From Promethearchaeia archaeon (GTDB lineage: Archaea; Asgardarchaeota; Lokiarchaeia; Sigyniarchaeales; SOKP01), in contig JAHQWL010000052.1 in the NCBI GenBank assembly GCA_029856155.1, positions 107,130 to 171,129 on the forward strand: a stretch of 64,000 bases of DNA, read 5' to 3'. The notes beneath the pieces are model-generated. The model made no database searches, was not told the DNA's origin, and saw only the letters and a list, made by a program, of their open reading frames with translations. Made by a program: the position numbers and the translations under genes. Below, in pieces: positions 26,701 to 30,465 of this stretch; the first letter of the stretch is position 1; each line of letters starts with the position of its first letter.

Positions 26701-27801
26701 TTATATTCTTGTTCTTCTCCAAAGAAAGATAGCTACTATAATAACTAATCCAATAGAACCAAAAACTATTCCTAAGATCCAGTAATTAAATTCTACCATC
26801 CAAATTTCACTGTAGAGACTAGACAAAGAATCTAATATTCTTAATGTCTCAAATGCATAATAACTAACCACAACTGAGGAGCTTTTCTGTTGATATCCTT
26901 CAGTGTTCTCTGCAAATCCACCATCTATAAAATTTTGATGTGTTAGTACCCAAGTTTTTATAAGACCTTTAAATAATTTGGTACTATCAATTATAGAAAC
27001 TGCTTTTACACAATAATATGTGCTGCTCAACAAGGCAATTTGAGCATAATCATCTGGCAAATATCCTCCATAATTATTAAGATCTGCAGAATTTATAACA
27101 TATAAAGATTGGAGATACCCTATTGTTTTAATAACACTATTTAACGCTTCGATTTCCCCTAATTCCTCTAAAATAAAAACTGCAAAACAGGTATCTACCA
27201 TAGTAGAACCAAGACTTTGATTGCTTCCATATCCCCCCTCGCTATTATAACATGAAAGAACCCAATTCTTATGTATTGATATATTTTCTAATGGTTTTTC
27301 TATTAATGAAAAAAGTTGAATACTGTAATAAGTTGAAGCTAAACTAACTAATTTGGTAGTATTTGAATAAGAAAATCCACCTGTTATTTGTTCAGTATCA
27401 TTTAGATATTTATAAATTTTATTTTCTAAATCAAGATTAATTTCATAATCCTCATCTAAGATATTGAGCGATTTCATTAAAAAGAATAAATCATATAAAT
27501 TTTCTTCATAATTATTAAACATTTCCTCAATATTATCTTCTAAAGTGCTTTTAAGTGTTTCAATATTATGTGGATTTACTGCAAAATAATTTAATATATC
27601 CAAAGCATAAGTTGTTGCTTCAAAAGATATGTCATCACTGCTACCAATAGCATTAGTAAAACCCTCACCTTCAATTTCATTTTGATATATAAAACTAGTT
27701 AAATAATACTGCCGTGTTTTTGCTAACGCACTCGGTATTGCATTTATTGCCAAAAATATTACAATTGTACCTATGATCAAACTCCGATATTTATGCTTCA
27801 A
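26701..27801 (-). CDS. Secreted, membrane-anchored prenyltransferase-beta-like (alpha/alpha) repeat protein
   Basis: Signal peptide, repeated Q/N..GG(F/Y)...STYY(A/C)V units, C-terminal TM followed by RRTR. Confidence 0.7.
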   Translation of the reverse strand: MKHKYRSLIIGTIVIFLAINAIPSALAKTRQYYLTSFIYQNEIEGEGFTNAIGSSDDISFEATTYALDILNYFAVNPHNIETLKSTLEDNIEEMFNNYEENLYDLFFLMKSLNILDEDYEINLDLENKIYKYLNDTEQITGGFSYSNTTKLVSLASTYYSIQLFSLIEKPLENISIHKNWVLSCYNSEGGYGSNQSLGSTMVDTCFAVFILEELGEIEALNSVIKTIGYLQSLYVINSADLNNYGGYLPDDYAQIALLSSTYYCVKAVSIIDSTKLFKGLIKTWVLTHQNFIDGGFAENTEGYQQKSSSVVVSYYAFETLRILDSLSSLYSEIWMVEFNYWILGIVFGSIGLVIIVAIFLWRRTRI

Positions 27802-27954
27802 ATAATAAAACCTATCTGTTAACTAAAAATTTAATTTTAAAAATATATCTTGAAATTAAAAAGTAACTATATATTAAAAGAATTCAAGGGAATATTTCAA
27901 TTTTATATAATTAAGTAAGAAATACAAATAAAAATCCAAATACTTATTTATTAC

Positions 27955-29469
27955 TTAAAGAATCTCGCTAATATCTCTATATAATAGATCCCTATTTGTT
28001 TGGAATTGTTCATAAGTAATAAATAACTGTTGGAAAGAAGGTAAACTTCCTAAAATAGCAGCACCTGTAAAAATAGCAAACTGAAGATTATCGGGTACAA
28101 AAAAATTAATTATTTTATTAGCAGATTCCATGAATTCAGAAAATTCTTGAGCAGGTGATTTTTTAGAAATTGCTTCAGGGATTTCAGTTTTTTCTAAATT
28201 TTCCATGGATGCTCCACAATAAGGACAGAAAAGTGAAGATATATCAGTTATTTCCCTCAAACAATTAGGACATTTATCTCTTTTTTTATTATTTTGATTT
28301 AATGCTCCAATCTTTATTTCAGGTAATACTAATACCCCACCACACGAAGGGCATAATTTTTTTCCATCATTTAAGTTTACAAAACTACCACAATGCGGGC
28401 AAGTATCTTCTTTCTTTTTTGAGATTTCAACAGCTTGTAATTTAATTAATTCACTTTTCATTGCAGAAAGAGGTGCGACCGGTTTAGGAATCTTACCTAG
28501 TTGAGAAAGGAGTGGATCCAATTCTGATTCAAAGCGTTCTTGAAACCCACTATATGAAAGATTTCCTCCGGAAAATACTATATGAGATAAAAGATCATGC
28601 CAATAGTGATTATCTATTGCTCTTAAACTAGCAATAACTGCTTGAGTTATATTCATTATATTTGTATATCCTAACATAGCGGGATTAAATAAAACTTCTG
28701 GAGCTTGATAGAGGATATAAGTTGGGACGTTGATGCTTGATCCATCAGGCATCGGAACACTAAACATTTCTCCTGTCGTAGAAGGTTTATTAGGATCCAA
28801 TACAAAATAGCAATTCTTTTCTTTTATCTCTTGAATGATCTCATCCGCTGCACTTGAAGAAATACTAACACCTTCTCTCATTAGGAGACTTTTTAAGTTT
28901 TGATTAACATCTACACCTGCTAATGGAAGCTTCTGAACAGCATGTTGGACTATCTGTCCATTAACTATTGGAACTATCCATGTCAATCCATCTCCACTTT
29001 CAATTACTAACCCAGTCGTCAATCCAACGCTAAACATAGATAATAATGGCGTTGGCATCATAATTAAACTTTTAACTTGATGAGTTTCAAAGAAAAGTCT
29101 TGCAATATACTCCTTGGTATCTCTTTGCAGAAAAGGAGATTCACAATAAAAAACAGGATAATTCGATAGATTCTCTATTCTAAGCAGTGAATAAAAAATG
29201 TAATTTAACACTTCATAGAAACTATCCCAATCCATGATCTCCCCCCTTGCTATCGGGTGTTTTATTTTAAGAACGCCACGCATTCTAGATACATCATTTC
29301 CAACATATATACTTCTAGCACTTACATCAACCATCACAGATTTATATTTTTCAGTTCCAGTAATGCAAGGAAAAACAAATCTTGGTCCAGGTTCTCCTGA
29401 AAATCCTATTTTGACATATGCTGAACCAATATCAATTATAATTGGTGTGCCAGGAAAGGGTAGTGCCAT
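27955..29469 (-). CDS. Actin-related protein with zinc-ribbon insertion
   Basis: IIDIGSAYVKIGFSGE.GPRFVFP, HPI.RG, LFFET, TGLVIESGDG, AG.D, IKEK.CY, APEVLFNP, SGG, GAAILGSL..FQ; four CxxC motifs inserted. Confidence 0.92.
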   Translation of the reverse strand: MALPFPGTPIIIDIGSAYVKIGFSGEPGPRFVFPCITGTEKYKSVMVDVSARSIYVGNDVSRMRGVLKIKHPIARGEIMDWDSFYEVLNYIFYSLLRIENLSNYPVFYCESPFLQRDTKEYIARLFFETHQVKSLIMMPTPLLSMFSVGLTTGLVIESGDGLTWIVPIVNGQIVQHAVQKLPLAGVDVNQNLKSLLMREGVSISSSAADEIIQEIKEKNCYFVLDPNKPSTTGEMFSVPMPDGSSINVPTYILYQAPEVLFNPAMLGYTNIMNITQAVIASLRAIDNHYWHDLLSHIVFSGGNLSYSGFQERFESELDPLLSQLGKIPKPVAPLSAMKSELIKLQAVEISKKKEDTCPHCGSFVNLNDGKKLCPSCGGVLVLPEIKIGALNQNNKKRDKCPNCLREITDISSLFCPYCGASMENLEKTEIPEAISKKSPAQEFSEFMESANKIINFFVPDNLQFAIFTGAAILGSLPSFQQLFITYEQFQTNRDLLYRDISEIL

Positions 29470-29571: not shown

Positions 29572-29997
29572 TTATTTTTGAAAAAATTCAAGAAGAGTTT
29601 TTAAGATTCCATTTTGTATAACCAATCCTATTAATTCATTATTTTCATTTACAACTGGAAGTCTTTGAATTTTTTTGAATATCATTTTCTCTAATACATA
29701 CTGTAATGTATCATCTTCTTTTACAATAAAAGGTTCTGGTGTCATTAAATCCTTCACAATTGTATTTGGTGAATTTAAACTCATTGCAAATCTAGCCAAA
29801 CGTATATCTCTTTGTGTAATAATACCAATAAGTTGTTTATTTTTACGATCTTTCACAACAGGAAGTCCACCAATATTTTTCCTGACCATCAAAAGTTCAG
29901 TGGTACTGATTTTTTCTTTTGGAATAGTAAAAAGTGGATCTTTAATCATAATATCGGAGACTTTTATCTTACTTAATTGCGTTAATCGGTCTTCCAT
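29572..29997 (-). CDS. CBS-pair domain protein
   Basis: Two CBS repeats (KVSDIM, GLPVV..LIGIIT; VKDLMT, RLPVV..LIGLV). Confidence 0.9.
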   Translation of the reverse strand: MEDRLTQLSKIKVSDIMIKDPLFTIPKEKISTTELLMVRKNIGGLPVVKDRKNKQLIGIITQRDIRLARFAMSLNSPNTIVKDLMTPEPFIVKEDDTLQYVLEKMIFKKIQRLPVVNENNELIGLVIQNGILKTLLEFFQK

Positions 29998-30087: not shown

Positions 30088-30465
30088 TTAGCTGATCTTC
30101 ATTGCTTCTCCAAGCTTTTTTTCAATTTTTGTTATTTCATTTAGATACTTCTGATAAATCTTTAAGATATACAGCCCCCAATCAGTTAATTTTACCCATC
30201 CTCCACCCTTAGAACCGCCTTTATGACTTTCGACAGGGTTCATACCCGTTCTTTTTTCTATTCTTTTTAATATATTCCATGCATATTTATAGGAATAATT
30301 ACATTCTTTTGCTGCTTGAGATAATGAGCCTTCTTTATTTTTATCAATATTTTTTAGCAACTCCGCCCATCCAGAACCTAATATACTTTTATTCTCAAAT
30401 TTCAACCAAAATTTTATTCCCAGTTTTATTTTAGGTTTTAATTCTTCAATGTTGGGATTCTCCAT
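30088..30465 (-). CDS. ModE N-terminal-like winged-helix regulator
   Basis: G...LL..ID..GSLSQAA...YSYKYAW..L, GG..GG..LT.WG. Confidence 0.85.
   Translation of the reverse strand: MENPNIEELKPKIKLGIKFWLKFENKSILGSGWAELLKNIDKNKEGSLSQAAKECNYSYKYAWNILKRIEKRTGMNPVESHKGGSKGGGWVKLTDWGLYILKIYQKYLNEITKIEKKLGEAMKIS

What the first reader, a model, noticed from the sequence alone, without database searches (positions are those of the whole stretch)
27955..29469. Actin-related protein with a ~125-aa four-CxxC zinc-ribbon insertion and altered hydrolysis residues
Seen: a complete actin fold with a full-length D-loop-like segment (KYKSVMVDVSAR). The insert (about 28115-28500; CPHC/CPSC/CPNC/CPYC) lies between GFQERFESEL and IINFFVPDNLQFAIFTG. 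These correspond to actin GIADRMQKEI and IKIIAPPERKYSVWIG, so the insert is in the subdomain-3 loop around residues 320-328. By eye alignment Q137 becomes T (MPTP), H161 becomes W (LTWIVP) and H73 becomes R. Known: Q137 and H161 drive actin ATP hydrolysis, and eukaryotic Arps diversify by loop insertions. Inference: a poorly hydrolysing, probably non-filament Arp-like adaptor with a Zn-ribbon interaction module, an archaeal parallel to Arp specialisation.
Basis: partly seen in the sequence, partly recalled or inferred. Interest (0 to 1): 0.72.

Follow-up and report, generated by a model that had tools for sequence, protein, structure and literature searches.

The report
Lokiarchaeal actin-related protein with zinc-ribbon insert
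This is a real actin-like protein, kept by nearly every genome of one order of Loki-type Asgard archaea (Ca. Lokiarchaeum ossiferum included), that lacks actin's catalytic glutamine, carries one or two zinc-binding modules on flexible tethers, and almost always sits next to a cell-surface protein gene; its function is untested and its architecture appears undescribed.

Summary
ORF 27955-29469 (-) encodes a 504-aa actin-fold protein. A 126-aa insert with four CxxC motifs (two zinc ribbons) replaces nothing and sits at actin ~K326/I327. By HMMER alignment, Q137 is T, H161 is W and H73 is R.

It is a family, not an oddity:
- It is single-copy and scores at least 530 bits only in the window's own order, in 4 families and nearly all genomes.
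- About 230 other Asgard genomes give only ordinary ~384-aa lokiactin scores.
- In 136 members Q137 is never Q (T/S/A) and H73 is always R. H161 is usually W but H in three. Deep branches have one ribbon.
- Published RT-qPCR primers identify the Ca. L. ossiferum ortholog as GenBank UYP44711.1. It has been placed in a tree and detected as transcript, but its text never mentions zinc or ribbons.

A signal-peptide and C-terminal-anchor alpha/alpha-toroid gene lies directly downstream in all but one divergent context.

"Poor hydrolysis" is plausible but untested. "Non-filament" is not supported, because the D-loop and barbed-end cleft are conserved above average. Mechanism remains inference. This scan found the same protein before on other genomes.

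The parts
27955..29469 (-). ZnR-ARP gene, 504 aa plus stop; ortholog of Ca. L. ossiferum GenBank UYP44711.1
28489..29469 (-). Actin fold, N-terminal part (residues 1-327: subdomains 1, 2, 4 and most of 3)
   Evidence: Pfam Actin 9-323; AF2 pLDDT mostly >90
29314..29349 (-). D-loop equivalent (residues 41-52, KYKSVMVDVSAR). It has the same length as in eukaryotic actin and is strongly conserved in the family
29245..29247 (-). R75 codon, at the position of actin H73; R in 136 of 136 members
29050..29052 (-). T140 codon, at the position of actin catalytic Q137; T 117, S 17, A 2, never Q
28978..28980 (-). W164 codon, at the position of actin H161; W in 122 of 136, otherwise F/Y/T/S/N, H in 3
28111..28488 (-). 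126-aa insert (residues 328-453) in the loop between the actin 309-320 helix and the 328-332 strand
28342..28401 (-). Zinc ribbon 1 (C357-x2-C360 ... C373-x2-C376). It is present in every family member
   Evidence: pLDDT ~70
28216..28272 (-). Zinc ribbon 2 (C400-x2-C403 ... C415-x2-C418). It is absent in deep-branching members (f32, P0129, L. ossiferum)
28141..28152 (-). A-x-E-F motif (A440-F443) in the disordered acidic tail of the insert; kept in 6 of 8 divergent representatives
   Evidence: pLDDT <50
27958..28110 (-). Actin fold, C-terminal part (residues 454-504), including the cleft-lining helix AILGSLPSFQQLF
26701..27801 (-). Conserved downstream partner gene (PT). It encodes a 366-aa protein with a signal peptide, a prenyltransferase-beta-like alpha/alpha toroid, a C-terminal TM helix and a short basic tail
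27802..27871 (-). About 70-nt non-coding element directly upstream of the PT start. It is nearly invariant across orthologous loci whose PT proteins are only ~40% identical. It is probably a promoter/operator plus ribosome-binding site
29572..29997 (-). Upstream CBS-pair protein (141 aa); a frequent but not constant neighbour
30088..30465 (-). Upstream ModE-N-like winged-helix protein (125 aa); a neighbour in most of the order, L. ossiferum included

Best explanation
The gene encodes an order-specific, single-copy actin paralogue (here called ZnR-ARP) that works beside lokiactin as an accessory cytoskeletal subunit.

Shown:
- It has a complete actin fold.
- It keeps the nucleotide-binding scaffold: D11, K18, G156, G158, K213/E214 and G301/G302 equivalents.
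- It lacks the catalytic Gln137 everywhere. It also has His73->Arg and Asp154->Glu.
- One or two zinc ribbons sit on flexible, length-variable tethers that leave the fold next to the 322-325 loop.

Inferred:
- It binds ATP/ADP but hydrolyses slowly or not at all.
- It uses its conserved D-loop and barbed-end cleft for actin-type longitudinal contacts with lokiactin (or itself). Its inter-strand contact surfaces have drifted. It therefore more likely ends, seeds or anchors filaments than builds bulk two-stranded F-actin.
- The tethered zinc ribbons dock a partner.
- The most persistent candidate context is the co-encoded, outward-facing toroid membrane protein, which suggests a role at the cell envelope.
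For: Fold and residues:
- Actin fold.
- Family-wide residue pattern in 136 members.
- Insert: low-pLDDT linkers of variable length, with ribbons at pLDDT ~70.

Contact surfaces:
- Mean family conservation is D-loop 0.81, residues 61-65 0.99, cleft 0.83 and 322-325 0.89, against 0.74 overall.
- Lateral-contact partners score 0.56 and residues 283-294 score 0.58.

Distribution and expression:
- Monophyletic clade separate from lokiactin.
- Near-universal and single-copy in one order, with a clean score gap to ordinary actins.
- The genome also has two lokiactins.
- The ortholog in cultured L. ossiferum was detected by RT-qPCR, below lokiactin (PMC9834061; identification).

Gene neighbourhood:
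- The toroid gene is directly downstream in 79 of 83 close loci.
- It is also directly downstream in 13 of 14 divergent contexts whose other flanks differ.
Against: - No biochemical or structural test of nucleotide binding, hydrolysis, polymerisation or partner binding was possible.
- Both longitudinal faces are conserved, which fits a homopolymer equally well.
- The interface analysis uses residue lists recalled from published F-actin structures, not a fitted model.
- HTH and FolD are also often syntenic, so part of the gene-order conservation is inertia.
- The toroid gene has its own strongly conserved upstream element, so co-transcription is doubtful.
- Only about 6 residues of the toroid protein are predicted to be cytoplasmic.
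- One genome (G386) has a TPR gene downstream instead.
- Three members keep His161, and deep branches have Glu/Gln at Ser14, so catalytic loss may not be uniform.
Confidence: 0.4

Rival explanations
1. It is a second, autonomous filament system. ZnR-ARP homopolymerises into stable, slowly hydrolysing filaments, and the zinc ribbons decorate the outside as docking sites.
For: - The D-loop and hydrophobic cleft are both conserved and actin-like.
- The ARP is 61-97% identical where its neighbour PT is only 36-89%, as expected for a polymer.
- The insert exits at the position of actin K326/K328, which is outward-facing in F-actin. This is general knowledge; PDB title 9zbp links K326/328 to tropomyosin.
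Against: - Lateral contact regions are poorly conserved.
- The only filament identified in L. ossiferum cells was assigned to lokiactin, and this gene's transcript was several-fold lower (PMC9834061).
Confidence: 0.25
2. It is a non-cytoskeletal ARP, analogous to nuclear Arp4/Arp8. The actin fold is a nucleotide-bound scaffold and the zinc ribbons bind DNA, RNA or a transcription/translation factor.
For: - Small zinc ribbons are common in archaeal nucleic-acid-binding proteins. The weak Pfam hits include TFIIB- and NOB1-type ribbons.
- A ModE-like wHTH gene is a frequent upstream neighbour.
Against: - The conserved D-loop and cleft are unexplained by this role.
- The ribbon matches are generic.
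- The HTH is missing in about half of the divergent contexts, while the membrane toroid gene persists.
Confidence: 0.1
3. It is a monomeric, non-polymerising adaptor with no actin-actin contacts at all (the strict form of the first reader's reading).
For: Loss of Q137 and, in most members, H161. A large insert lies next to the 322-325 contact loop.
Against: Above-average conservation of exactly those elements that make longitudinal actin contacts. The 322-325-equivalent motif (P/S)-Q-L-G is itself conserved.
Confidence: 0.15

Closest known systems
Ca. Lokiarchaeum ossiferum actin homologue GenBank UYP44711.1 (Rodrigues-Oliveira et al., Nature 2022/23, PMC9834061)
   Same: It is the ortholog. 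The paper's primer 361F maps inside the family match in a 6.0-Mb single-contig genome that all three published ARP primers hit exactly. It shows 38% identity, the same insert site, R at H73, S at Q137, and the same HTH-ARP-toroid-FolD order.
   Different: It has one zinc ribbon instead of two and retains His at position 161. The paper treats it only as one of three 'ARPs' in a tree and an RT-qPCR target. The words zinc and ribbon do not occur in its text.
Lokiactin / bona fide actin (Pfam PF00022; best PDB hit 9wc4 'HC1 actin', then yeast and muscle actin)
   Same: Same fold (TM 0.90), D-loop length, cleft residues and nucleotide-binding glycines and lysines. It is 33-35% identical to actins.
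   Different: It has the 126-aa zinc-ribbon insert, with Q137->T, H161->W, H73->R, D154->E and W356->F. It forms a separate clade. The genome has two true lokiactins elsewhere.
Eukaryotic Arp3 (insertions within the actin core)
   Same: An actin paralogue that acquires function through loop insertions. Arp3 insertions have complex-specific roles (PMC4947185). From memory (Liu et al. 2013, JBC 288:487; the paper was not readable here), one Arp3 insert lies in the same helix-K/strand-15 loop.
   Different: Arp3 keeps Gln137 and His161 (from memory, not checked here) and hydrolyses ATP. Its inserts are about 10 residues and not zinc-binding. No ARPC-type partners are implied here. Orthology to any eukaryotic Arp could not be tested.
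Protein prenyltransferase beta subunits (RabGGTase, GGTase-III, FTase), for the partner gene only
   Same: Alpha/alpha toroid with GGF/GGY repeats (Pfam PF00432 at 1.1e-14). Foldseek gives TM up to 0.77.
   Different: The partner has a signal peptide plus a C-terminal membrane anchor, so it is predicted to face outwards. There is no invariant Cys or His that could form the catalytic zinc site. Identity is about 14%.

Membership tests
Actin family (PF00022) | Sequence match above the curated cut-off and a four-subdomain actin fold | tested here: met
   222 bits against a cut-off of 27. AF2 core pLDDT >90; Foldseek TM 0.90 to actin.
Actin family (PF00022) | Nucleotide-binding scaffold (D11, K18, G156/G158, K213/E214, G301/G302) | tested here: met
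   All are invariant or nearly so in 136 members. Binding itself was not assayed.
Lokiactin / conventional actin | Catalytic Gln137 and His161, and His73 | tested here: not met
   The positions are T140, W164 and R75 here. Q is 0 of 136, H161 is 3 of 136 and H73 is 0 of 136. The own-genome lokiactin keeps Q, H and H.
Lokiactin / conventional actin | Placement inside the lokiactin clade | tested here: not met
   It forms a separate clade with SH-aLRT 99. The own lokiactins branch elsewhere.
Eukaryotic Arp1-Arp10 subfamilies | Orthology in a tree that includes named eukaryotic Arps | not testable with these tools
   No Arp sequences could be obtained. The best 60 PDB matches are all actins, not Arps. 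[quoted passage not shown]
Asgard ZnR-ARP group (orthologs of UYP44711.1) | Actin fold interrupted by one or more CxxC...CxxC ribbons at actin ~326/327, with R at H73 and non-Gln at Q137 | tested here: met
Double zinc ribbon (PF12773) / Zn_ribbon_3 (PF13248) | Score above the cut-off and four Cys per ribbon | tested here: met
   29.3 against 27.3 bits, and 31 against 27 bits. The eight Cys are invariant in 54 orthologs. Metal binding was not assayed.
Protein prenyltransferase beta subunit (neighbour gene) | Alpha/alpha toroid fold | tested here: met
   PF00432 at 1.1e-14. AF2 pLDDT 88.8 and Foldseek hits to GGTase beta.
Protein prenyltransferase beta subunit (neighbour gene) | Conserved Asp/Cys/His zinc site and cytosolic location | tested here: not met
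   The invariant residues are R30, T157, G246, Q289, D293, G295, F296 and S308, with no Cys or His. A signal peptide and C-terminal TM are present in all orthologs.

The most novel reading that the evidence does not exclude
ZnR-ARP and the co-encoded outward-facing toroid protein form a Lokiarchaeales-specific transmembrane coupling. The tethered zinc ribbons (or the acidic A-x-E-F tail) would hold the short basic cytoplasmic tail of the surface protein. The actin-like body would plug into lokiactin filaments. This would link the cytoskeleton to surface structures or adhesion sites, a prokaryotic analogue of cytoskeleton-adhesion linkers.
Probability: 0.12. Interest if true: 0.85.

Novelty: new variant of a known kind. 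Interest (0 to 1): 0.6.

Why it matters
Asgard actin-related proteins are cited as evidence for a regulated, eukaryote-like cytoskeleton, yet none has a known function.

This one has several features that make it a good first target:
- It is sharply defined: an insert, a lost catalytic Gln, and a fixed Arg at H73.
- It is universal and single-copy in the order.
- That order contains at least one cultured Loki-type strain, Ca. L. ossiferum. Two further one-contig genomes of about 4.3-4.4 Mb also carry it. Their identity as Promethearchaeum syntrophicum MK-D1 is only guessed from genome size.
- Its function can therefore be tested directly by biochemistry, cryo-ET and immunolabelling.

It would show whether paralogue specialisation by loop insertion, the route taken by eukaryotic Arps, arose independently in archaea. 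Its fixed pairing with a surface protein gene offers a concrete lead on how these cells connect filaments to their envelope and protrusions.

Tried and rejected
- Complex prediction of ZnR-ARP with lokiactin.
- The look-up of sequencing runs for RNA evidence.
- Literature. No paper combines Asgard ARPs with zinc ribbons, and only PMC9834061 names the ortholog's accession. The Arp3 insertion paper (PMC3537046) is not held, and a text search for the beta15 insert found nothing.
- Operon with the toroid gene. The 153-bp spacer has its own highly conserved element, so co-transcription was not assumed.
- RNA structure in that element. It was rejected: fold z-score 0.01 and no Rfam match.
- Archaeosortase-type sorting signal for the toroid protein's 'VEFNYWIL'-TM-basic tail. 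There was no NCBIfam hit, so it is left as an idea only.
- Origin of the insert from a paralogous zinc-ribbon gene in the same genome. Only marginal hits were found.
- Pseudogene or decay. This was rejected because of order-wide conservation without stops.
- Placement relative to eukaryotic Arps. This was not possible without Arp sequences.

Full report
**1. Observation**

The minus-strand ORF 27955-29469 encodes 504 residues. Pfam Actin matches residues 9-323 at E 1.2e-65, with a weak second stretch at 453-492. Zn_ribbon_3 and DZR exceed their cut-offs over residues 356-421.

phmmer against all PDB chains gives actins as the 60 best hits. The top hit is 9wc4 'HC1 actin', the lokiactin-type actin of a cultured Hodarchaeales strain.

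The printed alignments to yeast actin run from query 10-327 to actin 8-327 and resume at query 454 = actin 327. A 126-aa insert (residues 328-453, nt 28111-28488) therefore sits between the 309-320 helix and the 328-332 strand.

The same alignments put T140 at Gln137, W164 at His161 and R75 at His73. The D-loop has actin length.

**2. Structure**

AlphaFold2 was run with an 85-sequence alignment and gave mean pLDDT 80.7.
- The actin core is mostly above 90.
- The two ribbons (354-380 and 399-421) are near 70.
- The three linkers (333-351, 383-396 and 424-451) are below 50.

Foldseek gives TM 0.90 (normalised to the target) to G- and F-actin structures. The linkers also vary in length between relatives. 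The ribbons are therefore best described as small folded modules on flexible tethers.

**3. It is a family**

A word-indexed search found more than 120 clusters of 63-96% identity. All are about 505 aa with Actin plus DZR. They are annotated only as 'zinc ribbon domain-containing protein', 'actin-related protein' or 'centractin'.

An exhaustive phmmer over 1.84 billion representatives added seven deeper groups of 39-61% identity with the same architecture. After these the scores drop to ordinary, mostly eukaryotic, actins.

In a maximum-likelihood tree with the insert columns removed, all of them form one clade (SH-aLRT 99). This clade is apart from the genome's own lokiactins. A single-ribbon member branches first.

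Residue pattern in 136 members:
- Position 137 is T 117, S 17, A 2, and never Q.
- Position 73 is always R.
- Position 154 is E in 132.
- D11, K18, E214 and G301/G302 are invariant.
- Position 161 is W in 122, but F/Y/T/S/N elsewhere and H in three.
- Ser14 is replaced by Glu or Gln in the deeper groups.
- Six members have one ribbon instead of two.

**4. Distribution**

A profile of the wide family was run over 400 genomes of the phylum.
- True members score at least 530 bits, are full-length and have ORFs of 487-566 aa.
- The next scores are at most 393 bits, cover only model positions 1-330, and come from ORFs of about 384 aa. These are ordinary lokiactins.
- True members occur only in the window's order, families f1, f2, f31 and f32, in nearly every genome and as one copy.
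- They were not found in 7 genomes of other orders of the class, or in about 230 genomes of other classes.

The search for related loci confirmed relatives in 113 stretches of species-representative genomes. The 80 loci kept are mostly titled Promethearchaeota or Promethearchaeia.

**5. Link to a cultured organism and to the literature**

A 6.0-Mb single-contig genome in f2 (G315) is hit exactly by all three ARP forward primers published for Ca. L. ossiferum (primers from PMC9834061).

Primer 361F, designed for GenBank UYP44711.1, maps inside the family match (coordinates). UYP44711.1 is therefore the ortholog.
- It is 499 aa and 38% identical.
- It has one ribbon, S at 137, H at 161 and R at 73.

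[quoted passage not shown] It included the gene in an RT-qPCR in which lokiactin transcripts were several-fold higher than those of the other homologues. Its text contains neither 'zinc' nor 'ribbon'.

No other held paper names the accession. No paper combines Asgard ARPs with zinc ribbons.

The window genome has the same paralogue set:
- two lokiactins;
- this protein;
- P0123, which corresponds to UYP44126.1;
- P0124, which corresponds to UYP47647.1.

**6. Gene neighbourhood**

Directly downstream on the same strand is a 366-aa protein (26701-27801), here called PT.
- It has a signal peptide.
- It has a prenyltransferase-type alpha/alpha toroid: PF00432 at 1.1e-14, AF2 pLDDT 88.8, and best Foldseek hits to RabGGTase/GGTase-III beta.
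- It has a C-terminal TM helix and a tail of about 6 basic residues.
- No Cys or His is invariant. It is therefore not a canonical zinc prenyltransferase, and it is predicted to face outwards.

The pair is adjacent in 79 of 83 close loci with room to check.

It is also adjacent in 13 of 14 divergent contexts where other flanks differ. These are P0126, P0127, P0129 and P0131, and genomes G213, G165, G147, G315, G312, G318 and three of four f32 genomes. G386 has a TPR gene instead.

Among eight divergent contexts checked for them, the ModE-like HTH upstream was present in 4 of 8 and FolD downstream in 4 of 7 (one unknown). The six contexts added later showed HTH once and FolD twice. Part of the synteny is therefore inertia, but the toroid gene is the most persistent neighbour.

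The spacer holds a ~70-nt element just upstream of the toroid start. It is almost invariant across loci whose toroid proteins are only ~40% identical. It occurs exactly once in the genome; two one-mismatch near matches lie elsewhere. It has no significant RNA fold or Rfam match. It looks like a dedicated promoter/operator, so the two genes may be separately transcribed. The region upstream of the ARP is not similarly conserved.

**7. How it probably works**

Shown:
- The fold is intact.
- The phosphate, ribose and adenine scaffolds are intact.
- The catalytic Gln is lost family-wide.
- The ribbons are tethered.
- The family is conserved order-wide.

Inferred:
- The protein binds nucleotide, with hydrolysis slow or absent.

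F-actin contact residues were recalled from published filament structures and mapped through an alignment with a eukaryotic actin. Mean family conservation was:

| Element | Conservation |
|---|---|
| D-loop | 0.81 |
| Residues 61-65 | 0.99 |
| Barbed-end cleft | 0.83 |
| Loop 322-325 | 0.89 |
| All positions 5-370 | 0.74 |
| Inter-strand partners | 0.56 |
| Residues 283-294 | 0.58 |

The cleft residues resemble actin: LLFSGT.G..ILLSFL against VLYAGTEG..ILLTFM.

This pattern favours actin-type longitudinal contacts, with lokiactin or with itself. It does not favour a canonical two-stranded polymer.

The insert leaves the fold at the position of actin K326/K328. In F-actin this position is on the outer, tropomyosin-binding surface. 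That is general knowledge; the PDB title 9zbp is a pointer. The insert does not by itself forbid incorporation into a filament.

I therefore favour an accessory subunit that ends, seeds or anchors lokiactin filaments and recruits a partner through the ribbons. The cell envelope is the likely place of action. This is held at 0.4. A separate homopolymer (0.25), a strictly monomeric adaptor (0.15) and a nucleic-acid-associated ARP (0.1) remain open.

**8. Comparison and novelty**

It works like an Arp, an actin paralogue specialised by a loop insertion. Arp3 insertions are known to carry complex-specific functions (PMC4947185). Membership of any eukaryotic Arp subfamily could not be tested, and it fails the defining residues of lokiactin/actin.

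A zinc-ribbon domain inside an actin fold, together with the fixed toroid partner, appears undescribed. The gene itself is already in databases and in one published tree. I rate it a new variant of a known kind.

This scan has met the same protein on other genomes, and earlier follow-ups reached similar readings. I re-derived the neighbour pairing, the L. ossiferum orthology and the one-or-two-ribbon pattern independently here.

**9. Limits**

No Arp sequences were available for the tree. The tree was a 'quick' search, and its weak sister relation to P0123 (SH-aLRT 91) should not be relied on.

Noticed in passing
window 27802-27871 (-): A ~70-nt intergenic element directly upstream of the toroid gene's TTG start (core GTTAMTTTTTAATTNCAAG ... 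AGGT). It is nearly invariant across loci whose toroid proteins are only ~40% identical. It occurs exactly once in the genome, with two one-mismatch near matches elsewhere. It has no significant RNA fold and no Rfam hit, so it is probably a promoter/operator.
   Followed up: partly
L002:1495-2700 (-) (G000 contig C26): The second lokiactin paralogue (86% identical to the first) has no ATG/GTG/TTG upstream of the conserved N-terminus. The first listed start is a GTG just before the DNGTG motif. This suggests a non-canonical start or a shortened N-terminus.
   Followed up: no
window 26701-26810 (-) and orthologs: The toroid protein ends in a conserved 'MVEFNYWIL' motif, a TM helix and a W-R/K-R-R-I tail. 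The layout recalls archaeosortase/exosortase sorting signals, but no NCBIfam model matched.
   Followed up: partly
L092:1-2181: On the contig of the divergent member P0126, Vps4 (MIT-AAA-Vps4_C) and an ESCRT-II gene lie about 4-6 kb upstream of the ZnR-ARP.
   Followed up: no
family alignment, P0001 residue 16 (actin Ser14): Deep-branching family members (f2, f31, f32, P0126-P0131) have Glu or Gln where actin has phosphate-binding Ser14. The window's family f1 mostly has Ser; one f1 genome, G147, has Glu. The effect on nucleotide state is unknown.
   Followed up: partly
L096:7430-8531: In one divergent locus the toroid gene is split into two ORFs (176 and 181 aa). This is a frameshift, an assembly error or a genuine split.
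   Followed up: no
G225:C102:12418-13695 and G347:C12:3354-4412: Two same-genus genomes show the ZnR-ARP match with in-frame stops (1 TAG; 2 TAG plus 1 TAA). These are possible pseudogenes or assembly errors.
   Followed up: no
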